Assembly (NCBI GenBank): GCA_964463485.1
Contig: CAYXDO010000015.1
Coordinates: 34,259 to 98,258 of the forward strand
Length of the DNA: 64,000 nt
Reading direction: 5' to 3'
DNA from: an uncultured Myxococcales bacterium
Lineage (GTDB): Bacteria; Myxococcota; Kuafuiibacteriia; Kuafuiibacteriales; Kuafuiibacteriaceae
The notes under the pieces are model-generated. The model ran no database searches. It had not been told where the DNA came from and saw only the letters and a list, made by a program, of their open reading frames with translations. The position numbers and the translations under genes are program-made. This document shows positions 21,596-52,615 of the stretch, piece after piece. Position 1 is the first letter of the stretch, and each line of letters starts with the position of its first letter.

Positions 21596-21695
21596 AGCTC
21601 GGTTCAGCCAGCTCTGTTCGAAGCCAGCTCGGTTCGAAGCCAGCTCTGTTCGAAGCCAGCTCCGTTCGAAGCCAGATTCGTTCGAAGCCAAGTAG
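21596..21695. repeat. Tandem array of about 6 copies of a 16-bp unit gttcgaagccagctcN, in the intergenic region upstream of the 20107..21504 gene
   Basis: Read directly: ggttcagccagctct, gttcgaagccagctcg, gttcgaagccagctct, gttcgaagccagctcc, gttcgaagccagattc, gttcgaagccaagtag. Confidence 0.8.
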
Positions 21696-33478: not shown

Positions 33479-33526
33479 GCTTACGGAAGATGAGCTTACG
33501 GAAGATGAGCTTACGGAAGATGAGCT
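33479..33526. repeat. Tandem 15-bp repeat gcttacggaagatga x3.3 at the convergent 3' ends of the metzincin and chagasin-like genes
   Basis: Read directly: gcttacggaagatga gcttacggaagatga gcttacggaagatga gcttcag. Confidence 0.8.
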
Positions 33527-34661
33527 TCAGTACTGCGGTTCCTGGCCGATTTTGTACCAAGTGACTTTGTCACTCGGCGGAAACAGTGACTGCACCGACG
33601 CGTAGATCTGGCCCTTGATCGCGTAGGCGTTCACGTTGGCCTCGAGGCCGGCCTTGGTCATCGAGATTCGCTCGGCCTTCTTCCAGCCGGCGGGCGCCCG
33701 TCCGAGCTTGGTAGCGGTCTTGTCGTCTCCGAAGAGCGCGTCCTTCACCATGCCTCGAATCACGGCCTTCCGGTCGGCTTCGGTCGGTGCCATGATCGAC
33801 GCGCCTTCGGCGTCCTCCACTTTCACGGTGAAGTTGAACTTCTTGGCCGGATGCGCAGGATCGAACGGCCGAACGTATTCGAGCTCCACCTTGTGCGTGC
33901 CCACCGTGTTCAAGAACCCATCCGTCTTCCAGACGAGCTTGGTGTGACCGCCCGCGCCGACCGGCCCGCCGGCCCCGGGGCCCACGTACTCATTGGTGGC
34001 CGGATGGCCGAAGGTCTTGTCGGTCGAGTTGACCTGCCACTTGTATCCGGTCGTCGCGTTCGACCCCAGCTCGACGATGACGTCTTCGCCGCGCTTGACC
34101 GTGATGGTCTTGCCGTTGTCGTCGTCGCCGAGCTTGTTCACTTTGGCCGACGCGGCCTCCTTCACGTTCAGGGTGAAGGTGAATTTCTTGGCCGGATGGG
34201 CCGCATCGAAGGGACGCACGTACTCGAGCTCGACCTTGTGCTTCCCGACCGTATTCAAGAACCCATCGGTCTTCCAGATGAGTTGGGCAACTCCGCCGCC
34301 CCCCACCGGACCGCTCGAACCCGGACCGATGTACTCGTTCGACACGGGATGGCCGAGGGTCTTGTCGGTGGAGCTGACTTGCCACTTGTACCCAGTCGTG
34401 GCGTTCGCCGGCAACTTCACGACGACGTTCTCGCCCTTGGTCACATCGATCGTCTTGCCGTTGTCGTCCTCACCGATTCGGACACCGGTAATCATCTTGC
34501 CGCGCGTGCTCGACGGGCCGCCCAGTCGGCTCGCAGCCGAGGTGCCTACACGCTCCGCGGTATCGAGCGCCTTCTTGCTGCTCTTCTTCTTCGCCGTGGT
34601 GGGTTCAGTGGAAGTCGAGTGGACGGCGCCGGCCCCACCGGCTTTTCGGATGCTGCTGCTC
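33527..34661 (-). CDS. Tandem chagasin-family (MEROPS I42) cysteine-protease-inhibitor-like protein: two about 115-aa repeats plus a C-terminal domain of unknown function
   Basis: Two copies of GKTIxVxxGExVxVxLxxNATTGYKWQVxSTDKTxGHP...VGxHKVELEYVRPFDxAHPAKKF. NATTGYKW matches the chagasin NPTTG(Y/F)xW loop. ATG at 34661 has a GAGG RBS. No signal peptide. ORF-track start 34948 adds a basic, unlikely extension. Confidence 0.65.
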
Positions 34662-34842
34662 ATGATCGCCTCTGAAGATCGAACTGTGTCGGTCTTCTCC
34701 GGAGTTAATTGTGGGCCTATGTCGGTCGAACGAACGAATTTGTCAAGGGAAAACCGGGCGCGTCTGCTGACGGAGCCCCAGACACGAAGCCGCAAGTGAT
34801 CCGGAGCAACAGTGGGTCGCTTCAGCCGATAACGAGAGCAGG

Positions 34843-36444
34843 TTGAATCCGCCAATCCATCGGGCTCGGTGTGTCTTAGTCTTCGCTGTCTTCGCCGCTT
34901 GCGGAGACTCGGGATCGATCGGGAGGACGCCGCCCTATCTGGCTGCATCGGCCGACAAGATCGACTTTGGGGAGCGGACGGTCGGGACGGACGAAGAGCG
35001 CACGATCTACCTCATCAACAAAGGTCAGACGCCGCTCGAGCTCGAGATTCCGTCCGGAGACACACTCAACGGCATTTTCGCGGTGCTCTTGGATGAGTTC
35101 ACGGTGGCCGGAGAGCAGGACACAGTGGCTCGGGTTCGTTTCGAGCCCGCCGATCCGGTCTCCTACGAGACGGTGCTGCACGTACGCAACAACAGCTCGA
35201 ACCAGCCGGAGCTGAGTATCCAGGTGCTCGGGGTGGGGATCGAGCGAGACCCGTGCGACGGCGTGGACTGCTCCGCCGCGCCGGCGCCGTCGTGTGTATC
35301 CGAGTCGACCAGTCGTCACTACGAGCCGCTCGGAGTGTGCAACGCCGGTCATTGCGAGCATCAGTACCAGGACGACGTTTGCGAGCGTGGGTGCGACGTC
35401 ACGAGCGGAGTCTGCCGGCGAGACCCGTGTGAAGGGCTCGCGTGCAACACGCCACCGAGCCCGTGTTTCTTTGCGCAGGGCGCGTGTCGCGACGGCGCGT
35501 GCCAATACGAGCCCAACAACGCGGGCGTCTGCAGTGACTCGAGCCCGTGTACTCAGAACGACCGTTGTGCGGAGGGCAACTGCGTGGGTGACCCCATCGT
35601 GTGCTCGACGCCTCCGGACCCGCTCTGTGTAGACTCGACGACGCGGGAGGTAGCCAACCCGCAGGGCGTATGCAACCCGGCGACCGGGGGTTGTGAGTAT
35701 GCCGTTCAGCGTCAGTTTTGTGAGTTTGGATGTCTACCTCAAGGCTGTGACGGCGACCCTTGCATGGGTGTGGACTGTAACATGCCTCCGGCCACGCAAT
35801 GCTTTTCGCAGACGGGCGTGTGTGAGCTCGGCGTATGCAGCTACGAGTTGGTGGCGGGCCCTTGCGACGACGGCGACCCCTGCTCCCTCAACGACGCCTG
35901 TCGTATCGGCAGCTGTGTAGGCCAACCCACGATCTGCAACTCACCGCCGCCGCCGGACTGCGCCGCGCCCGACACGCGGCGTGTGTATGACACGAGCGGC
36001 GTGTGCACCAACGGCGCTTGTGAGTACGGAGCCACGACCGTCGCCTGCAACGACAGCAACGCGTGCACGGCGGGCGACTACTGCAGCGCCGGTGCTTGTC
36101 ACAGCGGCAGTGGGGTCAATTGCGACGACGGCAACCCATGCACGAGTGATAGCTGCGATCCGGGCGCGGGGTGCCGACACACCGCGATCAGCGGCGGGAG
36201 CTGCGTGAGCCCGAGCGGCGCGTGCCCCACGGGTACGTGCTCGTCCGGGACCTGCGTGCCCGTACCCAACGTGACTTGTGTGGCCACGTACCAGGCCGAC
36301 TTGTGCAACGACGTGGAGGTCGCCGGAATATGCGCTGCGAGCGGCGACTGCGTGGTGAGTCAAACGCCCCCCGAGTTCTATTGCCCGTGGTGTTACGGCA
36401 TCTGCCTGCAGTGTTATTTCATCCAGCTCTGCATCCCGTTCTGA
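34843..36444 (+). CDS. Cysteine-rich repeat lipoprotein (myxobacterial Cys-rich repeat type)
   Basis: Lipoprotein signal VLVFAVFAACGDSG. More than 15 repeats of C-x-D-G/N-x-C. Hydrophobic Cys-rich C-terminus CPWCYGICLQCYFIQLCIPF. Confidence 0.65.
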   Translation: MNPPIHRARCVLVFAVFAACGDSGSIGRTPPYLAASADKIDFGERTVGTDEERTIYLINKGQTPLELEIPSGDTLNGIFAVLLDEFTVAGEQDTVARVRFEPADPVSYETVLHVRNNSSNQPELSIQVLGVGIERDPCDGVDCSAAPAPSCVSESTSRHYEPLGVCNAGHCEHQYQDDVCERGCDVTSGVCRRDPCEGLACNTPPSPCFFAQGACRDGACQYEPNNAGVCSDSSPCTQNDRCAEGNCVGDPIVCSTPPDPLCVDSTTREVANPQGVCNPATGGCEYAVQRQFCEFGCLPQGCDGDPCMGVDCNMPPATQCFSQTGVCELGVCSYELVAGPCDDGDPCSLNDACRIGSCVGQPTICNSPPPPDCAAPDTRRVYDTSGVCTNGACEYGATTVACNDSNACTAGDYCSAGACHSGSGVNCDDGNPCTSDSCDPGAGCRHTAISGGSCVSPSGACPTGTCSSGTCVPVPNVTCVATYQADLCNDVEVAGICAASGDCVVSQTPPEFYCPWCYGICLQCYFIQLCIPF

Positions 36445-43845: not shown

Positions 43846-43961
43846 GACGAAAGGCGCGGAACCCTAGAAATGGCGTCGGGTTGTGTCAATCGAGAAGCCC
43901 AATCTCCCGTCGGACAAGAGGCCCAGGGCCGGAACCGCACGGGAAGTGCTATACCTCGAAT

Positions 43962-46900
43962 ATGATCGGCCGGAGAGTTTTTCACGCGGCGCCTTTGCTT
44001 CTCGCGCTCGTCTCGTGTGGTCGCGATGGGCCGGCGCTCGGCAAGTCCGTCGAACGCTCCCTGCTGATTCGTCCAGGGTCCTTCGAGCTGTATCGAGGCC
44101 AGCGCTTCGGGTTCGACGTGTTGCTCGTCGAGGGCGGGTTGGAGAAGTCGGTGCTCTCCGAGGCCGAGACCTCCCTCGAGCCCGCGAAGATCGTGGAGCT
44201 CCAAGGGCTCGGCGCGGGGATCGCGCGGGCTGCGGGCGAGGCGAAGCTGCTCGCTAAACATGGGCCGCTCTCCGCATCGGCCGACATCACGGTCCATGCG
44301 GCCGAGCTGACCGGCATCTCCGTCAAACCCGAACGCTTCACCTTGGCCACGGGTGAGTCGCGGCCGCTCGAGGTCGAGGGAACGCTGAGCGATGGGTCCC
44401 GAGTCGATCTGACTCCTGGCGCCACGGGGACGACGTACCGCAGCTCTGGGGCGCGGTTTGCGAGCGTCGATGCGAATGGCTCGGTGCTCGCGCTTGCTCC
44501 CGGCGAGGTCGAAATCACCGTGACGCACGGCAGATTCTCCGCGACCGCGAATCTCACGATCACCGGCGAGCCTCCGAAGGGCTTCGTGAGCTTGCGACTC
44601 GACCCCGACGTGTTGGCGTTGGGATTCGGCCAGAGCGCTCTCCTTAGAGCCATCGGCAAAACCGAAGACGGAACCGAGCACGACCTCGTCAGAGAGGGCT
44701 TCGAGGTGAGCTTCGGTTCCTCGGACAACAACTTACTGGTCGTGTCTCCCATGGGGTCGGTTCAAGCTCGCAACTCGGAGGGCTCCGTCACGGTCACCGC
44801 CAAACACCGCGAGCTCTCGGCGACGGCGAAGGTCGACATCAAGCGGGAGGTCGAGCGCCGACTCACTTCCATCACCATCGTGCCAGAGACCGCGACGCTC
44901 AACGTCGGCGAGACTCTTCAGCTCCAAGTGCTGGGAAATTATTCGGATGGAACTCAGGCCGATCTCACTCGCGGCTCCGGAACGACCTATCGCCCCACGC
45001 CCGCCAACGGCCCGGCGACCGTGGGCCAAACCACCGGGCTCGTGCGCGGGGCACGACCAGGCAACTCGGTCATTACGGCGACCAACTCGGGATTCACCGC
45101 GCAGACTCGCATTCGAGTGCTGGAGGCGGACGTCACACTCACCGAGCTCATCGTCGAACCCGCTCAGGTCTCCATCCCCGTCGGGGAGACTCGCGAGCTG
45201 ACCGTCACCGCCGTGTTCTCCGATGGGTCTCGCACCAACGTCACGAGCTCACCGTCCACAACGTACTCGGTGTCTCCCATCGACGTGGCCACGGTGAATG
45301 CTGGTCGAGTCACGGGCCGACGCCCCGGGCGCGCCGAAGTTAGGATCACATACGGCGGAATCACGCGCTCGGTCGAGGTCGTGGTCACCGATCAGCCGGT
45401 CACCGTCGTCGGACTGCGGTTCGTGCCGGACCCGATCCGAGTCGCCGTCGGCAGCTCCGTACCCTTCCAAGTCATCGCGCAATACTCGGACGGGTCGACG
45501 CGAGACGTAACCGGCTCGAGGGGGCTGGCGCTCCGCATTTTGGACACTTCCGTCGCGGCCCTCTCCGGTATCGGAGGGATCCAGGGACAAGCGGCCGGCG
45601 ATACTTTCATCGAAGCCAACTTCCAGAACGCGTCGGCTCGCGCACGGATCGTCGTCGAAGGGGGGCCGGTCGGATATGTCGCACTCATCCTGGTCGTACC
45701 CAATACCATCGACGTCGGATCCACGGAGGCTTGGCAGGTGGGCGGAGTGCGTTCCGACGGCCAGATCGACGATCTCACACACGACCCTAGGCTCCAAATC
45801 TCGGTGTCGAGCTCGAACGTCATCGCCGTGAGGCCGGGCGAGGTCGAGGGGCTACGCGTGGGGGTCTCGGATCTGACCGTGCGGATGTTGGGGCTGAGCG
45901 CGACGCGCAGCGTACGTGTGATCGCGACGGTCGATCCAGTGGTTCGGATCGAGTTCGTGCCTGCCTCCATCACGATGGACGTGGGCGATCAAGTCATCGT
46001 GCAGTTGTTCGCAATCTACCAGTCCGGAGCTCGGCGCGACATCACGTACGATCCCGGCGTGAACGGCAGCGCGACCGGCCCCGTCGACCTGCTCCCCGAT
46101 CCGAACGGGGTGATCGTGGTTGCGCTCGGTGCTGGGCGGGCACAAATCGACGTCACCTACCAGAACCTCTCGGCGAGCCTGCCGATCACGATTCGGGGCG
46201 CGAACCCCACCCTCACGTCGCTCGAGGTGGTCGCGCCCACTTCGATGAACGTGGGCAACGTCGTGGCGTATCAAGTCATCGCGCACTACAGCGACGGGTC
46301 GGTCGAGGACGTGACCTTCGATCCGAACGTCGTCGTGCGAGTGTCTCCGCCTGGAGTGGCCAGCCTGCTCGGCGCCGGGGCCATCCGAGGAGACTCTCCG
46401 GGGACGGCGATGGTCGAGGCCGTGCTCGGGGGCTTCCAGGCGAACGCGTTCATCCGCGTGCTACCCGCGTCATTCGTGGCGCTCTTCTGGGTACCCTCGG
46501 CGCTCACACTGCAGGTCGCAGAGTCGGCGACGGCCGAGCTATTCGGTCGCCGAGCGGACGGGAGCACCAGCCGAATTTCTCCGTCCGGCGTGGACGCGCT
46601 CTCGGCGTCTGGCCCGATCGCAGTCAGCGTGGGCCCGACGAGCTTCATCATCAGCGGCAGCGGCGTTGGGACAGGTGAGTTGCGTGCCTCGATGGATGGG
46701 CTCGAGGCGGTGCTTCCCGTCAACGTGACACCTGGCCCAGCCCAGGTCACCGGCATTCGCGGAGAACCGAACCCGATGAACCTGACGATCCTGGGAATCG
46801 GTCGAATCACCGTGATTGCGACCTACTCGGATGGGCGGGAGGGCCCTGTCACCGGCGCAACCTTCGTGAGCGCGAACGGGATGGTCGCAAACGTGGATCC

Positions 46901-48710
46901 CAGCGGCACGGTGATCGGATTCAGCCCGGGCACCACGACGATTCAAATCAGTTATTCGGGCTTCAACGCGACGGTGACGGTCAATGTCGGCGCGACGCCC
47001 TTACGACTGATCGTCACGCCAGACCCGGTCGACGTCGACGTCGGTTCCGTCGTGGCGCTGAGTGTGTCCGTCCAACTCAGTGACGGAACGACTCAGCCCG
47101 CTACGGGTGCGACCTTCAGCTCCGACGACCCGTCGGTGGCCTCAGTCGGTCCACTCGGCGGCGTTCGCGGGGTGACCGCGGGACAGACGTTCGTGACGGT
47201 CAGCGCGATGGGATTGAGCGCGCGCATCGGCGTCACCGTCCACGCGGTCCCGCCGCCGGTGCTCACGCGCCTCGACCCGGATGCGATCGCGGTGGGTTCG
47301 CCAGCGACGACCGTTCGTGCGCTCGGGAGTGATTTCCGAGCGGGCGATCGTATCATCTTCGATGGCGGCGTGCTCACGGCGACCTTCGTCAGCGCCAACG
47401 AGCTCACCTTCAGACTCACCGCTACTCAGCTCCGGACCGTCGCCAATCACCGCGTCCAGGTCGAGCGTCCCACGACCGCGCAGAGATCGGTCGTTCGAAC
47501 TCTGCGGGTCGGAGAGCCTCCCAACATCAGCGAGCTCAACCCGGCGGCGATGCGAGAGGGTACGACGGAGGATTTGGAGGCCGTCGGCAGCGGACTCACG
47601 GGGCTGACGATCACCTCCAACAGCCCGGTGATTTCGATTTGCTGTGCGGCCGAGTCAGGGACTTCGGTCCAATTCAGGGTGACCGCGCCGGCGAGCTCGG
47701 CGGGTTCGTATACGCTCACCTTCACGAACGACTTTGGCTCGACGACGGTCACGCTCACCGTCCTGGCTGGCCCAGCGGATCTCGTGGTCAGTGCGGGTCA
47801 AACGGTCCATCTGTCCGGTGCGAATACCTATCACGACGTTCGTGTCGAGGCTGGCGGGACGATCATCGGGGATGGGTTCACGCCCCTGCACCTGTTTGCG
47901 GAGGGCACGATCACGATTCGAGGGATGATCGACGTAAGCGGGTCGGACGGGCAGGACGGCTTTCGCGGACCGGCGGGCGGCGGTGACGCAGGACCCGGCG
48001 GCGGTGGCGGTGGCGGCGGTGCGGACGGCAACACCAACTCTCCTGCGGCAGGCGGGCAAGGCGCGCCGAACGGAGGCTCTGCGGCGATCGGCGCGGGAGC
48101 TGGCACGGCGGCCGGAGACGGCGGCGGCTTGGGTGCGGGCGAAGGTGCAGCCGGAGGCTGTGGACAAGGCGGTGGCGGTGGCGCCTTTGGCGGCAACGGT
48201 GGCGCGGGCGGCGGCGACGCTGGAGACGGGCGCGGAGCCCCCGGAGGCACGGCCTCCGGCGGGAGCACGTTCGCGGGTGGCACCGGCGGAGGCGGCGGAA
48301 GCACATGCAGCAATAGCTCCGGCGGAGGCGGGGGCGGAGGCGGAGGCGTGCTCGTCCTCGAGACTGCAGGCGGCCAAATCTCGGTGGTCGGCATCGTGAG
48401 GGCTAACGGCGGCAAAGGGGGCGATGGGTTTGGCAACACCGGAGGCGCAGGCGGAGGCGCGGGCGGCCGAGTTCAGCTCGCAGCCCCAGGCGGAGTCGTG
48501 AGTGTGTCGGGTACGGTCGAGGCGGTCGGCGGCGGCGGCGGCAACTCCTTCGACGGGGATGCCGGCGGCGGCGGCGGCGGCGGCCAGATCGTGATCAGCG
48601 CGGGGACTCGCAATCTCACCGGAGTCATCGACGTGGCGGGAGGCAACGGCGGGCTCGCCATTCGAAATGGAAACTCGGGGCGACCCGGAGCCTCGGGAGT
48701 CACGCCCTAA
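43962..48710 (+). CDS. Giant surface lipoprotein, about 1580 aa: about 14 tandem bacterial Ig-like (Big_2) domains, IPT-like segments and a Gly-rich low-complexity C-terminal region
   Basis: Lipoprotein signal MIGRRVFHAAPLLLALVSCG. Recurrent about 85-aa units with ...G..A..G.A.ITA/VT....... typical of Big_2. Final about 215 aa are Gly/Ala/Asp-rich. ORF-track start 43881 precedes the signal peptide. Confidence 0.75.
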   Translation: MIGRRVFHAAPLLLALVSCGRDGPALGKSVERSLLIRPGSFELYRGQRFGFDVLLVEGGLEKSVLSEAETSLEPAKIVELQGLGAGIARAAGEAKLLAKHGPLSASADITVHAAELTGISVKPERFTLATGESRPLEVEGTLSDGSRVDLTPGATGTTYRSSGARFASVDANGSVLALAPGEVEITVTHGRFSATANLTITGEPPKGFVSLRLDPDVLALGFGQSALLRAIGKTEDGTEHDLVREGFEVSFGSSDNNLLVVSPMGSVQARNSEGSVTVTAKHRELSATAKVDIKREVERRLTSITIVPETATLNVGETLQLQVLGNYSDGTQADLTRGSGTTYRPTPANGPATVGQTTGLVRGARPGNSVITATNSGFTAQTRIRVLEADVTLTELIVEPAQVSIPVGETRELTVTAVFSDGSRTNVTSSPSTTYSVSPIDVATVNAGRVTGRRPGRAEVRITYGGITRSVEVVVTDQPVTVVGLRFVPDPIRVAVGSSVPFQVIAQYSDGSTRDVTGSRGLALRILDTSVAALSGIGGIQGQAAGDTFIEANFQNASARARIVVEGGPVGYVALILVVPNTIDVGSTEAWQVGGVRSDGQIDDLTHDPRLQISVSSSNVIAVRPGEVEGLRVGVSDLTVRMLGLSATRSVRVIATVDPVVRIEFVPASITMDVGDQVIVQLFAIYQSGARRDITYDPGVNGSATGPVDLLPDPNGVIVVALGAGRAQIDVTYQNLSASLPITIRGANPTLTSLEVVAPTSMNVGNVVAYQVIAHYSDGSVEDVTFDPNVVVRVSPPGVASLLGAGAIRGDSPGTAMVEAVLGGFQANAFIRVLPASFVALFWVPSALTLQVAESATAELFGRRADGSTSRISPSGVDALSASGPIAVSVGPTSFIISGSGVGTGELRASMDGLEAVLPVNVTPGPAQVTGIRGEPNPMNLTILGIGRITVIATYSDGREGPVTGATFVSANGMVANVDPSGTVIGFSPGTTTIQISYSGFNATVTVNVGATPLRLIVTPDPVDVDVGSVVALSVSVQLSDGTTQPATGATFSSDDPSVASVGPLGGVRGVTAGQTFVTVSAMGLSARIGVTVHAVPPPVLTRLDPDAIAVGSPATTVRALGSDFRAGDRIIFDGGVLTATFVSANELTFRLTATQLRTVANHRVQVERPTTAQRSVVRTLRVGEPPNISELNPAAMREGTTEDLEAVGSGLTGLTITSNSPVISICCAAESGTSVQFRVTAPASSAGSYTLTFTNDFGSTTVTLTVLAGPADLVVSAGQTVHLSGANTYHDVRVEAGGTIIGDGFTPLHLFAEGTITIRGMIDVSGSDGQDGFRGPAGGGDAGPGGGGGGGGADGNTNSPAAGGQGAPNGGSAAIGAGAGTAAGDGGGLGAGEGAAGGCGQGGGGGAFGGNGGAGGGDAGDGRGAPGGTASGGSTFAGGTGGGGGSTCSNSSGGGGGGGGGVLVLETAGGQISVVGIVRANGGKGGDGFGNTGGAGGGAGGRVQLAAPGGVVSVSGTVEAVGGGGGNSFDGDAGGGGGGGQIVISAGTRNLTGVIDVAGGNGGLAIRNGNSGRPGASGVTP
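47990..48640 (+). repeat. Gly-rich low-complexity coding region (GGGxGxG runs) at the C-terminus of the giant lipoprotein
   Basis: Translated runs GGGDAGPGGGGGGGGADG...GGGGGGGGGVLVLE...GGGGGGQIVIS. The underlying DNA is GGC/GGN-rich. Confidence 0.8.
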
Positions 48711-48803
48711 TCGGTATTTTTGACAGGCCCTGGCCCCAGGTACGGCGAACGTAAATCATAGAGCAGCCCCAAGCGCGGCGTGACAACTCACGGGCGTGAC
48801 AAC

Positions 48804-51341
48804 TCACGGGCGGGCCCTGGCGACGGCCACGCGGCGGCCAGACATTCCGAAAGCGAGCTCTTGGTCACCGATCAGGGCCACAGCGCCAGCGAATTCAGCA
48901 TCGAGCCGCGTCCATCGGTCGAGGGCGAAAGGCCTTTCGATGAAAGTGCGGCGACCGAGCGACAAGGTCTGCGCAAAGACGGTCAAGTGCCCCAGCGGGT
49001 CAATCAGCACCGACGGAGTTCCCGTCATGAGTAGCCTGGGAGAGTCTCGCGCCGGCACATCGTACCCGGGCAACGCTCGGATTCGAAGCCCGTCGGCGCG
49101 GTCTGCGAGTCGGCGCGGTCGAGCCTCGACCAGGTTGACTCGATCGAGGATGCTGGAGCGAACCGCGAAGAGGACACCGCCCTGCTCGAGGTCTTGAATC
49201 GATTCGATGGGTCGACTCTGCCCGAGAGTGGAGTCTGCGACGACCTCGGCGGGGAGGGCAACACGCTGGACTCTGCCAGCCGCGTATCGGGCCAGCACTC
49301 CGGAGCAGCCCCCGAGCCAGGCGACACCCCCTCCCGCGGATGCGACGTGACGCCACGACCCCGGGATGGGTGCGAACGGATCCGGAAACTCGGCGGTTCG
49401 CGCGCAATCGTTCGTGCCCGGCGAGGTTTCGAGTTCGGGAGTGCTCGGATCGTCCCACGCGACCTCGACCTCGGCGGCGACGTCTCCTCGGAGCTCGTAG
49501 ACTTTCCAGCCCGCACCCACGAGGAGCCCCACTCCGTGGGCGACCTCTGCGACGTCGTCGTAGGTGATTTCGGGTAGGTCATATTTGGTCCAATGAGGCG
49601 GGTTGATTGAAACGTCGAGCCGTCCAGCGAAGCCGCCCTCGGGTGTCGTCGCTGCGATCCAGAACGTCCCATCCGCGCGCGATCGAGCGGCGCCGACGAC
49701 AAAAGCGCGAGGATCGACCGGCAGCGAGATCGGCGAGCCCAGAGCGCGGCCTTCGAGCTTCGTGACCTCCGGGGGGCTTGGCCAGAACACCCAAGCCGCG
49801 TCGCCGTCGGGTACGATCGCGGCGGCAGGGAGGGTGTGCTCGCGGCCGTAGGTAGGTTCGGGAGGGCTGCCCGAATGAGACCGCAGCCACTCGCCATCGC
49901 GGGCTCTCGCGAGCAAAGTCCCGACGGGAATCGAGTCTGGCCGAAAGAGATCAGCTGGCAGGCCCAACTCGGCAAGTAAACCGGCGCGAGCGTGGTCGTC
50001 GGCATCCAGCACGAGCGCTCGACCGTCGGCCATACTCACCCAGGTCTCGGTCTCCGTTCGATGAACGATTCCGGAGATGGCGACCGAGGAGGTCAGGATT
50101 GTCTCCCAAGGACTCGTCCCTCGGACCTGGGATCGATGAAGTCGGTAACGCCCCTCTTCGACGGTGTAGACTAGGCCTTTGCTACCGACGCGACCCAGGT
50201 GGACCCGCGACCCGAGGCGACTGACATCCCGAGTCGCCAGCTGAGGAGACAAGTCGAGCGCGAAGACGGCGCCCTGCCCGCCGAGGAGCAGCGTGGACTC
50301 GTCGAGGGCGACCACAGATTCCGCCTTGTCTGGGGCTCTCGACAGGCTGCCGCGGACGGTGCAAGTCGACAGATTGTCGCACTCATAGACGATCAATCGG
50401 TGGGGCGAGTTGATGTCTTGGTGTATGATGAGTACGGACCCAGAGGGAGCTCGACACAAAGTGTATTTCTCGATCCCCGAAAACCGTGGAATCGAGTGTT
50501 TCAGCTCGACACCTCGACTCGACATCGAGAAGACGCGCGCGAGGTCCGCTTGGTCGGTGTCGAGGCTGAGCACGAGGACGGAAGCGTCACCGAGGGCCTC
50601 CGCATCGATGATCGGCCCGGGGAAAGTCACCGGGTGCGTCGTTCGCTCCCCGGCTGAACCGATCCACAGCGCGACTCGCTCGCTGACGAACGCGGATGCG
50701 CCGCTCGGCGTCATCGCGGCGATCTCGACGGGCTCTGCGTCCAAAGGGGGATGGATGAACTCGATATCCAGCGGAGGGCTCGTCGCGGCGACTTCCGGCC
50801 AGGCCGAGCAGGTGCCCGGGCGCGTCACGACGACCGACCGTTCGAGCGCGAGCGCGGAGGGATCTGAGGAATCGAGCCTATGAGTCGGGTCGAACACGGC
50901 GGCGAACGGGGGGATCGGGCACGCGTCGCCTTCGAGCAAGAGCTGAGGAGGTTGCGTCGCGGGCACGGCGCAGAACGGACAGCTCCCAATCAGAGGGGCA
51001 TCGGTGGACTTTCGCACATCGAGCGCTCCGACTTCGGTGACACTCAGCGGCGCGCTGGTGGGGCCCACGAGGTCCGCGGCAGCGACGACCACGAGGAGCT
51101 TCCCGTAGGTTTCGTCGACCTCGACGCGACCCAGTCCGTCGCGAATGGGTACGACTTTGTCCACCTGCCCGCTGGCGTCCATGGAAACGAAAACGACCAG
51201 ATCGCCGGGCAGCGCGTCGACGGGAAACGTGAGCGCGTCGGGAGCGCAAGCGATCAGGCCGCAAGCGATCAGGCAGCAAGCGATCAGGGCGAGGCGCAGC
51301 GTCGCGCTCCCTGAAGAGGGACTCACCTTCTCAGCATGCAC
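48804..51341 (-). CDS. Large secreted (lipo)protein of about 845 aa, of unknown function. The signal peptide contains three tandem LIAC lipobox-like motifs.
   Basis: N-terminus ...SATLRLALIACCLIACGLIACAPDA. Long beta-rich body with no motif I recognise. Start placed at a GTG about 51341; ORF-track start 51419. Confidence 0.55.
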   Translation of the reverse strand: MHAEKVSPSSGSATLRLALIACCLIACGLIACAPDALTFPVDALPGDLVVFVSMDASGQVDKVVPIRDGLGRVEVDETYGKLLVVVAAADLVGPTSAPLSVTEVGALDVRKSTDAPLIGSCPFCAVPATQPPQLLLEGDACPIPPFAAVFDPTHRLDSSDPSALALERSVVVTRPGTCSAWPEVAATSPPLDIEFIHPPLDAEPVEIAAMTPSGASAFVSERVALWIGSAGERTTHPVTFPGPIIDAEALGDASVLVLSLDTDQADLARVFSMSSRGVELKHSIPRFSGIEKYTLCRAPSGSVLIIHQDINSPHRLIVYECDNLSTCTVRGSLSRAPDKAESVVALDESTLLLGGQGAVFALDLSPQLATRDVSRLGSRVHLGRVGSKGLVYTVEEGRYRLHRSQVRGTSPWETILTSSVAISGIVHRTETETWVSMADGRALVLDADDHARAGLLAELGLPADLFRPDSIPVGTLLARARDGEWLRSHSGSPPEPTYGREHTLPAAAIVPDGDAAWVFWPSPPEVTKLEGRALGSPISLPVDPRAFVVGAARSRADGTFWIAATTPEGGFAGRLDVSINPPHWTKYDLPEITYDDVAEVAHGVGLLVGAGWKVYELRGDVAAEVEVAWDDPSTPELETSPGTNDCARTAEFPDPFAPIPGSWRHVASAGGGVAWLGGCSGVLARYAAGRVQRVALPAEVVADSTLGQSRPIESIQDLEQGGVLFAVRSSILDRVNLVEARPRRLADRADGLRIRALPGYDVPARDSPRLLMTGTPSVLIDPLGHLTVFAQTLSLGRRTFIERPFALDRWTRLDAEFAGAVALIGDQELAFGMSGRRVAVARARP
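51246..51290. repeat. 15-bp x3 tandem repeat gcaagcgatcaggNc inside the signal-peptide coding region of the 48804..51341 gene
   Basis: Read directly: gcaagcgatcaggcc gcaagcgatcaggca gcaagcgatcagggc. On the minus strand it encodes LIAC-C, LIAC-G, LIAC-A. Confidence 0.85.
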
Positions 51342-51673
51342 TCGACCGTGGAGACGAGGAAGCCTTGCACATCGAAATTCCGGCGGAATGTCGTCCGGGG
51401 ACAGGTGACACGACCCCATGTCCGCTGACCACGGGCATCGAACGAGTCTCTGCGGGGCTCGGCCACAAGCCTTTCTTCGTCAGCCGAGTAGGCCGGGAGC
51501 TGGTCGAGATGCCCGCAATGGAGCTCGAGTGAAGCACCGGTTTGACACCTCGTGCGATCCTCCCCATGACTGAGGAGCCCAAACGAGGGCTGCCGAACGA
51601 ATCCGAGGAAGTCGAGAGGCCGGAGCGAGTCTTGTGAGTGAAGCCAAGCGACGCGAGGTTCGACGACAGGAAA

Positions 51674-52615
51674 TCACCAGCGGAACTGGTTGGGATCGAA
51701 CTCTCGCTCGTCGAGGAGGCGATAGCCTTCGGGATCTTGGATTTCCGCCGGGATCGACTCACCCGATCCGAGCCCCGCGGGCTCGCTGACGTCGACGACC
51801 ACGCGCGCTTGAGTTGCGGAGGGATCGGCGCTCGGCGTGCTCTCAGGGGCGTCCCACGACTTGACGAGCTGCGCGGTGAGCCAGCGATCAGCCGGGATGC
51901 CGAGTACGACGTGGAGCCGCGAAGTCTCCGAAAGCTCGACGACCAAGTCGACCGAGTCGGAGCCTCGGAGCTCGAAGGGGACCGAAGCCTGAGCTCGGAG
52001 CGCATCACGATCGCACGCGATTCGATACCACCAATCCGGTCGCGCGGGCTCGCCATCCGGGCCCGGTTCACGAACGTCCTTGGCCGGCTCACCATCCGGG
52101 CCCGGTTCGCACGGATCCTTCGCGGGCTCTCCGTCTGGGCCTGGCTCGAGGGGTGACTCCCGATGAGTGACCCCTTTTTCGTCGGTGACCGTGGGGCCGC
52201 TGACTCGGCCGCGGATCACGACGGAGGCTCCGTCCAAAGCCTCGGTTGGGCCGACTCTGCCGAACACGGCCAACCCACCTTGAACGTAGGCCTCGGGGAA
52301 CGGAAAGAGGGCCTCGCCTTCTCGAGAGCTCAGGAGGTGCGGTCCTTCGACGAGGGGGTGCCCGCCCGTGGGAATGGCTGGGTTATCGCCGAGCAAGCGC
52401 AAGACGTCGACGTTCACGGAGATCTCTTCGACGGTGACCCGGCCAGAGAGCTCGCTCGAGAGTCCACCGAGGTCGAGCGCGGCGACCAGCCCAACCCGCG
52501 CTTCACGCGGCTCGGGCAGCGAGAGCGAAGCGTCGGTGCGCTGGCCACACGCGGAGAGGGCGAGCATGGAGCTCGCGGTGAGTGTTACCCATTTTGGAGT
52601 TCTTCGGCCTTTCAT
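51674..52615 (-). CDS. Lipoprotein with three acidic Pro/Gly-rich 13-aa repeats ([13 protein letters not shown])
   Basis: Signal with lipobox [30 protein letters not shown] lies 9 nt upstream of the ATG at 52615. Start overlaps the stop of the upstream regulator gene (ATGA). Confidence 0.55.
52044..52160. repeat. 39-bp x3 imperfect tandem repeat encoding [13 protein letters not shown] / [13 protein letters not shown] / [13 protein letters not shown]
   Basis: Recurrent catccgggcccggttc(a/g)c cores read in the sequence, matching the 13-aa protein repeats. Confidence 0.7.

What the first reader, a model, noticed from the sequence alone, without database searches (positions are those of the whole stretch)
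51246..51290. In-frame 15-bp triple repeat creating three consecutive lipobox motifs (LIAC-C, LIAC-G, LIAC-A) in a signal peptide
The DNA repeat gcaagcgatcaggNc x3 encodes ALIACCLIACGLIACA in the h-region of the 48804..51341 protein. Each LIAC matches the lipoprotein lipobox [LVI][ASTVI][GAS]C. Copy-number change by one unit keeps the frame but shifts the lipidated cysteine or the signal length. This is a potential slipped-strand mechanism to tune localisation or processing of a large secreted protein. I am not aware of this being described.
Basis: seen in the sequence. Interest (0 to 1): 0.5.

Follow-up and report, generated by a model that had tools for sequence, protein, structure and literature searches.

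The report
Triplicated lipobox in lipoprotein signal peptide
A 15-base stretch has been copied three times in a row inside the export signal of a large, uncharacterised bacterial lipoprotein; it looks like a recent, tolerated duplication rather than a switch, and only the last copy sits where relatives carry their lipid-attachment cysteine.

Summary
The repeat is real. On the minus strand, a 13-nt core (CCTGATCGCTTGC) occurs three times at 15-nt spacing (51246..51288) and encodes A-LIAC-C-LIAC-G-LIAC-A. It lies in the signal peptide of a real gene (48804..51326, 840 aa, NCBI MBI4818488.1, a Deltaproteobacteria MAG).

About 100 distant homologues (25-35% identity) form a family of 800-900 aa tandem beta-propeller lipoproteins. 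Almost all have one lipobox. In 61 of them the Cys sits 10-16 residues (median 13) before a conserved first strand (GDLVV), and the mature end reads C-[SAG]-P. Only the third Cys here (C27) fits: spacing 14, h-region 15, C-A-P-D. No other family member has a repeated signal peptide.

The locus is seen in five assemblies (the MAG and four Logan contigs from four runs, three of them identified). All have three units, and the three Logan contigs compared are 100% identical to the window, so there is no evolutionary depth.

The window holds six strong tandem arrays against about 0.05 in shuffles. One is a 16-bp duplication across this gene's own stop codon.

Best reading: a recent, lineage-specific, in-frame slippage duplication that lengthened the h-region from 5 to 15 residues, with C27 lipidated. 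Interest is low.

The parts
48804..51326 (-). CDS of an 840-aa lipoprotein precursor (NCBI MBI4818488.1, HY791_19635). Alternative in-frame starts are GTG 51341 (845 aa) and ATG 51419 (871 aa, as called in the Logan assemblies). The mature part is a small N-terminal domain plus tandem beta-propellers.
   Evidence: ORF list. Identical NCBI protein. 99 representatives of a distant family. AF2 pLDDT 86, pTM 0.87, all-beta. Foldseek hits to double beta-propellers. GC3 rises to 0.7 or more only from about 51340 downstream. No Pfam family.
51246..51326 (-). Signal peptide, residues 1-27: n-region MSPSSGSATLR (R11 = 51294..51296), h-region L12-A26, and the lipidation Cys inferred to be C27 (51246..51248).
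   Evidence: Sequence. AF2 helix 8-26 followed by coil 27-42. Family comparison.
51276..51290 (-). Repeat unit 1, GCC CTG ATC GCT TGC = A-L-I-A-C (C17). This lipobox lies only 5 residues after R11.
51261..51275 (-). Repeat unit 2, TGC CTG ATC GCT TGC = C-L-I-A-C (C18, C22).
51246..51260 (-). Repeat unit 3, GGC CTG ATC GCT TGC = G-L-I-A-C (C27). It is followed by A-P-D, the family-typical mature N-terminus.
51180..51206 (-). First conserved beta-strand of the mature protein (G41-D-L-V-V-F-V-S-M49). It begins 14 residues after C27. The first in-frame ATG downstream of the repeat (51180..51182) lies inside it.
   Evidence: Motif found 10-16 residues after the lipobox Cys in 61 homologues. AF2 strand 43-49, pLDDT above 90.
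48777..48812 (-). A second short tandem duplication in the same gene: 16 bp x 2.2, 100% identical, spanning the stop codon (CCCGTGAGTTGTCACG x2).

Best explanation
This is an ordinary signal-peptidase-II (lipoprotein) signal peptide that has recently gained two extra copies of a 15-bp segment through in-frame tandem duplication, by replication slippage or unequal exchange.

The segment covers the end of the hydrophobic core and the lipobox, so the duplication produced three L-I-A-C motifs and lengthened the h-region from 5 to 15 residues.

The precursor is expected to be exported by Sec. The helix L12-A26 would sit in the inner membrane, with R11 on the cytoplasmic face and the third Cys (C27) at the periplasmic interface. 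There Lgt would add diacylglycerol and LspA would cleave before it, giving a mature protein that begins C-A-P-D. The two upstream LIAC copies would then be only hydrophobic filler inside the cleaved signal peptide.

The duplication is a by-product of a genome-wide tendency to make short tandem duplications. It survived because it is in frame and keeps (or improves) a workable signal peptide. It is not a programmed variable element.

Shown: the repeat, its reading frame, the family's single-lipobox architecture, the fit of C27, the absence of variants in the available assemblies, and the excess of tandem duplications in the window. Inferred: which Cys is lipidated, the slippage origin, and neutrality.
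For: 1. Repeat and frame.
2. The gene is real and its start is upstream of the repeat. There is an identical NCBI protein, a family of 99 representatives, a high-confidence AF2 model with helix 8-26, coil 27-42 and strand 43-49, and GC3 rises from about 51340.
3. Family architecture. In 61 homologues with a recognisable lipobox, the distance from the Cys to the first strand is 10-16 (median 13, sd 1.3). The h-region length is 8-18 (median 11.5). The residues after the Cys are mostly S/A/G, then P.
   - C27: distance 14, h-region 15, C-A-P-D.
   - C22: distance 19, h-region 10, C-G-L-I.
   - C17: distance 24, h-region 5, C-C-L-I.
4. Cys+1 must lie at the membrane-periplasm interface for Lgt (PMC8048626). 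That matches the end of the predicted helix.
5. It is a one-off: no other of 102 family N-termini has a repeated 4-mer or longer in the signal peptide. Three paralogues in the same MAG (HY791_15735, _31875, _28240) have unrepeated signal peptides.
6. Recent origin: the three 13-nt cores are identical, including all third codon positions.
7. General mutational background. The window has 6 distinct tandem arrays with TRF score 70 or more, against 1 such array in 20 dinucleotide shuffles combined. Arrays in coding sequence have periods 15, 39 and 345, all multiples of 3. Non-coding arrays have periods 16/32, 15 and 16. One of them spans this gene's own stop codon.
8. All 5 contigs carrying the locus have 3 units.
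Against: - No experimental or dedicated predictor result (LipoP or SignalP was not available) shows which Cys is acylated. C22 also gives an h-region length (10) inside the family range.
- The only differences between units fall in the two junction bases (GC to TG and GG) and none in the 39 core bases. For randomly placed substitutions this is unlikely (about 0.0003 to 0.007 depending on the assumed history; computed after seeing the pattern). It could point to selection on the residue after the internal Cys, or to imprecise junctions.
- A one-unit ancestor would have had an h-region of 5 residues, below the family minimum of 8. The duplication may therefore have been selected rather than neutral.
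- The five assemblies are clonal, so stability over evolutionary time is untested.
Confidence: 0.7

Rival explanations
1. Selected, compensatory lengthening. The pre-duplication signal peptide (MSPSSGSATLR-LALIA-C) had too short a hydrophobic core to be exported efficiently. Duplication of the 15-bp unit, once and then again, was fixed because it restored a normal h-region length. The mechanism and the lipidation site (C27) are the same as in the best explanation, but the repeat is adaptive and kept at 2 or more copies.
For: With one unit the h-region is 5 residues, below the minimum of 8 seen in 46 homologues with a definable n-region. Two units give 10 and three give 15, both inside the family range of 8-18. 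The junction codons have changed (Ala to Cys, Ala to Gly) while the cores have not.
Against: No ancestor or close relative is available: the nearest homologue is 32% identical. The pre-duplication state is therefore hypothetical, and R11 or the n-region could have changed after the duplication. There is no measure of export efficiency.
Confidence: 0.2
2. One reading: the repeat is a contingency-like element. Slipped-strand gain or loss of 15-bp units in the population changes the signal-peptide length or which Cys is acylated. That would change the residues at +2 to +7 that sort lipoproteins, and so tune localisation or processing.
For: Three perfect 13-nt cores are a possible slippage substrate. 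In Myxococcus xanthus, residues near Cys+1 (+2 Lys, +7 Ala) influence sorting to the inner membrane or the extracellular matrix (PMC3222651). A shift of the lipidated Cys would therefore change the sorting context; for example, +7 is Ala if C22 is used and Thr if C27 is used.
Against: No variant allele was found in the 15-billion-protein collection or in 5 assemblies, nor in JGI metagenomes. There are only 3 copies of a long unit. Nothing similar occurs in 102 family members or in the other lipoprotein genes of the window. Gain or loss of whole units always leaves a final LIAC followed by APD, so the mature N-terminus stays the same if the last Cys is used. Non-coding arrays of the same size class in the window argue for a plain mutational origin.
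Confidence: 0.05
3. Heterogeneous or alternative processing without any DNA change. Lgt and LspA use C22 (or both C22 and C27), giving a mature protein with a 5-residue hydrophobic extension (C-G-L-I-A-C-A-P-D...), or a mixture of two N-termini.
For: C22 has a consensus lipobox (L-I-A-C) and an h-region of 10 residues, within the family range.
Against: C22 lies in the middle of the predicted helix 8-26, not at its periplasmic end. It is followed by hydrophobic residues, unlike the polar [SAG]-P-[ED] context seen in the family. Its spacing to the first strand (19) is outside the family range of 10-16.
Confidence: 0.1
4. Artefact: the repeat is an assembly error, or it lies outside the real coding sequence because the true start is downstream.
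For: The source is a metagenome-assembled genome. None of the candidate starts has a good Shine-Dalgarno sequence, on my own reading of the sequence returned (not a tool result).
Against: Three of the four independent Logan contigs, from three sequencing runs, were compared and carry the same three-unit sequence, base for base; the fourth encodes the identical 871-aa protein. The array is 45 bp, shorter than a sequencing read. The family conserves a lipoprotein signal peptide and the strand at residues 41-49, which a start at ATG 51182 would remove.
Confidence: 0.02

Closest known systems
Bacterial lipoprotein (signal peptidase II) signal peptides with a lipobox [LV][ASTVI][GAS]C
   Same: [quoted passage not shown] Homologues and neighbouring genes carry the same kind of signal.
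   Different: The lipobox and the last part of the h-region are present three times as a perfect DNA tandem repeat, and four Cys lie in the signal peptide. A full-text search for 'tandem', 'two', 'second', 'double', 'duplicated' or 'multiple' lipobox(es) found no paper.
In-frame intragenic tandem repeats (VNTR-like) in bacterial surface or secreted protein genes
   Same: Head-to-tail copies with a unit length that is a multiple of 3 and near-perfect identity, in a gene for an exported protein. The adjacent lipoprotein gene has a 39-bp x 2.7 in-frame repeat in its mature part.
   Different: Such repeats usually lie in the mature, exposed part of the protein and vary in copy number between strains. 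Here the repeat lies in the cleaved signal peptide, and no variation could be shown.
Phase-variable repeats in signal-peptide coding regions, such as the CTCTT pentamers in Neisseria opa genes and the CT dinucleotide repeats at the 5' end of Helicobacter outer-membrane protein genes (recalled from general knowledge, not tested here)
   Same: A DNA repeat is located in the part of the gene that encodes the signal peptide, and slipped-strand mispairing is the presumed mutational mechanism.
   Different: Those tracts have many copies of 1-5-bp units and switch expression on and off by frameshift. This one has 3 copies of a 15-bp unit that always stays in frame, in an environmental MAG, with no evidence of switching.
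Unnamed family of 800-900 aa Cys-rich tandem beta-propeller lipoproteins in Deltaproteobacteria MAGs (paralogues HY791_15735, HY791_31875, HY791_28240; HYV07 and IT384 MAGs)
   Same: Full-length homology at E-values down to 4e-51, shared conserved cysteines (C116, C119, C136, C173, C316, C322...), the WDDP.T...E motif, the lipobox followed by the GDLVV strand, and the double-propeller fold.
   Different: It is only 25-35% identical to any other member, and it is the only member with a repeated signal peptide.

Membership tests
Lipoprotein (SPase II) signal peptide | Lipobox [LV]-3 [ASTVI]-2 [GAS]-1 C+1 | tested here: met
   L-I-A-C is present three times. The consensus is as quoted in PMC8048626.
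Lipoprotein (SPase II) signal peptide | Positively charged n-region followed by an uncharged hydrophobic h-region that ends at the lipobox | tested here: met
   R11 (and K5 if the start is GTG 51341) is followed by L12-A26 with no charged residue. AF2 predicts a helix at 8-26. The h-region length of 15 for C27 is within the family range of 8-18.
Lipoprotein (SPase II) signal peptide | Homologues carry a lipobox Cys at the equivalent position | tested here: met
   61 of 98 homologues have a recognisable lipobox 10-16 residues before the conserved first strand. C27 is 14 residues before it.
Lipoprotein (SPase II) signal peptide | S-diacylglyceryl modification by Lgt and cleavage by LspA at the Cys | not testable with these tools
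   This needs mass spectrometry, globomycin sensitivity or palmitate labelling.
Contingency locus (phase- or copy-variable simple sequence repeat) | Copy-number polymorphism within a population or between strains | tested here: inconclusive
   All 5 contigs that carry the locus (the MAG and 4 Logan contigs) have 3 units, and there is no variant in the 90% cluster. However, the three Logan contigs compared are 100% identical to the window over 5-6.6 kb, so they sample one clone.
Contingency locus (phase- or copy-variable simple sequence repeat) | Long tract of short units (typically 1-9 bp, many copies) giving high slippage rates | tested here: not met
   The array has 2.9 copies of a 15-bp unit.
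Contingency locus (phase- or copy-variable simple sequence repeat) | A unit change alters expression (frameshift or promoter spacing) | tested here: not met
   The unit is a multiple of 3, so the frame is always kept.
In-frame intragenic tandem repeat | Head-to-tail copies of high identity, with a unit length that is a multiple of 3, inside a CDS | tested here: met
   TRF reports period 15 and 96% matches, with a 13-nt core that is 100% identical in all three units, inside the CDS.
Tandem beta-propeller lipoprotein family (unnamed) | Significant full-length sequence similarity and shared conserved Cys and motifs | tested here: met
   99 representatives at E of 1e-3 or better, 47 at 1e-10 or better, with the best at 3.6e-51 over residues 40-830. 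Invariant cysteines are reported.
Tandem beta-propeller lipoprotein family (unnamed) | Double beta-propeller fold | tested here: met
   The AF2 model has pLDDT 86 and pTM 0.87. Foldseek against the PDB returns tandem WD or propeller structures at E of about 1e-16 to 1e-12, with modest TM-scores of 0.3-0.4.

The most novel reading that the evidence does not exclude
The 15-bp array could be a genuinely variable in-frame element. Unit gain or loss in the population would set the h-region length (5, 10, 15 or 20 residues), and with it the efficiency of export or the choice of lipidated Cys. That would give a graded, heritable and reversible control over how much of this large propeller lipoprotein reaches the envelope, or over which sorting context it carries. 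Such a mode of variation has not been described for lipoprotein signal peptides.
Probability: 0.05. Interest if true: 0.6.

Novelty: new member of a known kind. Interest (0 to 1): 0.2.

Why it matters
As it stands, this is a neat natural example of how a short in-frame tandem duplication can remodel a signal peptide without destroying it. It is also a caution for lipoprotein predictors and annotators, because three consensus lipoboxes occur within 15 residues.

It offers a ready-made allelic series (1, 2, 3 or 4 units, giving h-regions of 5, 10, 15 or 20 residues) for asking how Lgt and LspA choose among competing lipoboxes, and how h-region length limits lipoprotein export.

If copy number were found to vary in natural populations, it would be a new way of modulating lipoprotein export. 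Nothing seen here indicates that.

Tried and rejected
1. Close relatives for a copy-number comparison. The word-indexed protein search found only the protein itself. The exhaustive HMMER search found nothing between 100% and 32% identity. A GTDB species-representative scan with the protein found no relative. A JGI metagenome scan with the last unit plus its 3' flank found 0 hits.
2. Alignment-based locus search in genome contigs. A degenerate DNA pattern for WDDPxTPE gave 117 loci, none of which proved to be a homologue by local tblastn. That was a wasted scan.
3. Looking up synthetic 1-, 2- and 4-unit protein variants by exact match. I prepared them but did not submit them. Any such variant would be more than 98% identical and would already sit in the 90% cluster, which has only two members.
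4. Looking up the neighbouring gene, to catch contigs where the target gene differs. It returned the same five contigs, all with 3 units.
5. Pfam: no family for the protein or its upstream neighbour.
6. Rfam (E up to 1) over 48600..52000 found nothing. The sigma-70 promoter scan over 51200..51750 also found nothing, so neither helped with the choice of start codon.
7. Literature. There was no hit for phrases describing multiple or tandem lipoboxes. Broader searches on repeats in signal peptides returned nothing relevant.
8. Plus-strand ORF 50880..51314, in which the repeat would read SDQAA x3. I rejected it as spurious, because the minus-strand frame has the homologues, the confident fold and the GC3 signal.
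9. GATC sites: there are three at 15-bp spacing inside the repeat. GATC is generally common in the window (528 observed against 212 expected from base composition), so I attach no significance to this.
Full report
**1. The observation**

The minus strand at 51300..51237 reads GCT GCG CCT CGC... In the gene's frame it is ACG CTG CGC CTC GCC CTG ATC GCT TGC TGC CTG ATC GCT TGC GGC CTG ATC GCT TGC GCT CCC GAC. This translates to T-L-R-L-A-L-I-A-C-C-L-I-A-C-G-L-I-A-C-A-P-D.

Tandem Repeats Finder reports 51245..51288 with period 15, 2.9 copies, 96% matches and score 81. The 12-mer CTGATCGCTTGC occurs exactly three times, 15 nt apart. No dinucleotide shuffle of the window gives as many matches.

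The three units are GCC/TGC/GGC followed by CTGATCGCTTGC. A 13-nt core is therefore identical in all three units, and only the two junction bases differ. Each L-I-A-C fits the lipobox consensus [LV][ASTVI][GAS]C (PMC8048626).

**2. The gene**

The repeat lies in the ORF 48804..51419 on the minus strand.

- NCBI annotates it as MBI4818488.1 (HY791_19635, hypothetical protein), 840 aa from the GTG at 51326. It sits on contig JACQYO010000084.1 of MAG GCA_016208175.1, "Deltaproteobacteria bacterium".
- Other gene calls use the ATG at 51419 (871 aa).
- All three candidate starts (51326, 51341, 51419) are upstream of the repeat.
- GC3 in this frame rises to 0.7 or more only from about 51340. This favours 51326 or 51341.
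- No Pfam family matches.

An exhaustive HMMER search finds 99 cluster representatives, mostly 800-900 aa and 25-35% identical. Several of the best hits are paralogues in the same MAG (HY791_15735, HY791_31875, HY791_28240). The family shares invariant cysteines and a WDDP.T...E motif.

AlphaFold2 with an 85-sequence alignment gives pLDDT 86 and pTM 0.87. The model has an N-terminal helix at residues 8-26, a coil at 27-42, and then an all-beta protein. Foldseek matches the all-beta part to tandem beta-propellers.

The neighbouring genes are also lipoproteins: a 313-aa protein upstream and a 1582-aa Big_2 protein downstream on the other strand. A sigma-54 activator lies further upstream.

**3. 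What the family says about the signal peptide**

Nearly all homologues with a complete N-terminus have a classical lipoprotein signal peptide with a single lipobox. About 13 residues after it comes a conserved first beta-strand (for example EPGDLVVVA).

In 61 homologues where both features can be located:
- The distance from the Cys to the strand is 10-16 (median 13, sd 1.3).
- The distance from the last charged n-region residue to the Cys is 8-18 (median 11.5).
- The residues after the Cys are mostly S/A/G, then P, then E/D.

The three cysteines of the target compare as follows:

| Cys | Distance to first strand | h-region length | Following residues | Fit to family |
|---|---|---|---|---|
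| C27 | 14 | 15 | C-A-P-D | fits on all three counts |
| C22 | 19 | 10 | C-G-L-I | spacing outside the range |
| C17 | 24 | 5 | C-C-L-I | spacing and h-region outside the range |

The predicted helix ends at A26, which puts C27 at its periplasmic end. That is where Lgt needs Cys+1 to be (PMC8048626).

The in-frame ATG at 51182 downstream of the repeat lies inside the conserved first strand, so it cannot be the start.

The third LIAC is therefore the homologue of the family's lipobox. The other two copies are extra h-region.

**4. Is it variable?**

The 90%-identity cluster in a collection of about 15 billion proteins has only two members. They are the 840- and 871-aa start variants, both with three units.

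The 871-aa protein is encoded on four Logan contigs from independent assemblies; the three shown come from runs SRR12113400, SRR12113402 and SRR12113406. Those three are 100% identical to the window over 5-6.6 kb and each carries three units.

I also looked up the upstream neighbour, to catch contigs where the target gene might differ. This returned the same five contigs (the MAG and four Logan contigs), all with the 840- or 871-aa product.

A JGI metagenome scan with the last unit plus its flank found nothing. A scan of GTDB species representatives found no close relative.

The repeat is therefore not an assembly artefact, and no variant is known. The sampled population is clonal, however, so stability across diverged strains is untested.

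**5. Background**

The window contains six distinct tandem arrays with TRF score 70 or more. Twenty dinucleotide-preserving shuffles gave one such array in total.

- In coding sequence, the periods are 15 (this array), 39 (the neighbouring lipoprotein gene, [11 protein letters not shown]...) and 345. All are multiples of 3.
- In non-coding DNA, the periods are 16/32 (21596..21690), 15 (33479..33527) and 16 (48777..48812).
- The last of these spans the stop codon of the target gene itself.

This is what a general slippage or duplication process filtered by selection for reading frame would produce. Among 102 family N-termini, only this one has a repeated 4-mer or longer in the signal peptide.

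**6. Mechanism**

Best explanation (confidence 0.7): two recent in-frame tandem duplications of a 15-bp segment covering the end of the h-region and the lipobox, tolerated because the result is still a normal SPase II signal peptide. Export, lipidation at C27 and cleavage before it are inferred, not shown.

Two details suggest the duplication may not be entirely neutral:
- A one-unit version would have an h-region of only 5 residues, below the family minimum. Lengthening may therefore have been selected (rival, 0.2).
- All differences between units fall in the two junction bases. This changes the residue after the internal Cys from Ala to Cys and Gly, and there are no changes in 39 core bases (about 0.0003 to 0.007 by a calculation made after seeing the pattern).

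Alternative use of C22 without any DNA change is possible but disfavoured (0.1).

Against it:
- Gain or loss of whole units leaves the final LIAC-APD junction unchanged.
- The tract is short.
- No variation is seen.
- Nothing similar recurs in the family or in the window.

**7. Comparison with what is known, and novelty**

The element meets the sequence-level definition of a lipoprotein signal peptide and of an in-frame intragenic tandem repeat. It fails two of the three defining features of a contingency locus, and the third (polymorphism) is inconclusive.

I found no paper that describes tandem or multiple lipoboxes. To my knowledge, the known repeats in signal-peptide coding regions are frameshifting on/off switches (Neisseria opa, Helicobacter outer-membrane protein genes), which this is not.

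I therefore file it as a new member of known kinds: a curiosity with some value as a natural test case for lipobox choice and h-region length. Interest is 0.2.

Noticed in passing
window 48777..48812: A perfect 16-bp x 2.2 tandem duplication (CCCGTGAGTTGTCACG on the minus strand) spans the stop codon of the same gene. The gene therefore carries recent short duplications at both its 5' and 3' ends.
   Followed up: partly
window 52043..52148 (in minus-strand ORF 51674..52615): A 39-bp x 2.7 in-frame repeat encodes [11 protein letters not shown](PC/VR)... in the mature part of the adjacent 313-aa lipoprotein (signal peptide [24 protein letters not shown]). There is no Pfam match.
   Followed up: partly
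window 21596..21690 and 33479..33527: Two further near-perfect short-unit arrays lie in intergenic DNA: 16/32 bp x 5.3, and 15 bp x 3.3 at 100% identity. Four of the six strong arrays in the window have 15-16-bp units. Overall, the window has six arrays with TRF score 70 or more, against about 0.05 per shuffle. This points to a genome-wide tendency to make tandem duplications of that size.
   Followed up: partly
window 33808..34476 (in minus-strand ORF 33527..34948): A 345-bp x 1.9 repeat at 78% identity, which looks like an internal domain duplication of about 115 aa. I did not analyse it.
   Followed up: no
window 51246..51290: All sequence differences between the three units lie in the 2-nt junctions (GC, TG, GG, GC). 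The 13-nt cores are identical, including their synonymous positions. The junction changes alter the residue after each internal Cys (Ala to Cys, Ala to Gly). The cause could be chance, imprecise duplication junctions, or selection.
   Followed up: partly
proteins P0101 (HY791_15735), P0004 (HY791_31875), P0013 (HY791_28240): The closest homologues (about 30% identity) are paralogues in the same MAG. This uncharacterised family of Cys-rich tandem beta-propeller lipoproteins is therefore multi-copy in the genome. 11 of 61 homologues carry an extra Cys inside the h-region, and so does P0101 (read separately), for example STAC-VALSC.
   Followed up: partly
window 51365..51532 (+): NCBI annotates a 55-aa ORF on the opposite strand, in the 347-nt gap between the 313-aa lipoprotein gene and the target gene. 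It overlaps the 871-aa version of the target ORF and is probably spurious.
   Followed up: no
window 47980..48600 (+), C-terminal part of ORF 43881..48710: The 1582/1609-aa Big_2 lipoprotein ends in a long Gly-rich, low-complexity region (GGGGGG/AGG runs) that produces many small TRF hits. It converges on the 3' end of the target gene.
   Followed up: no
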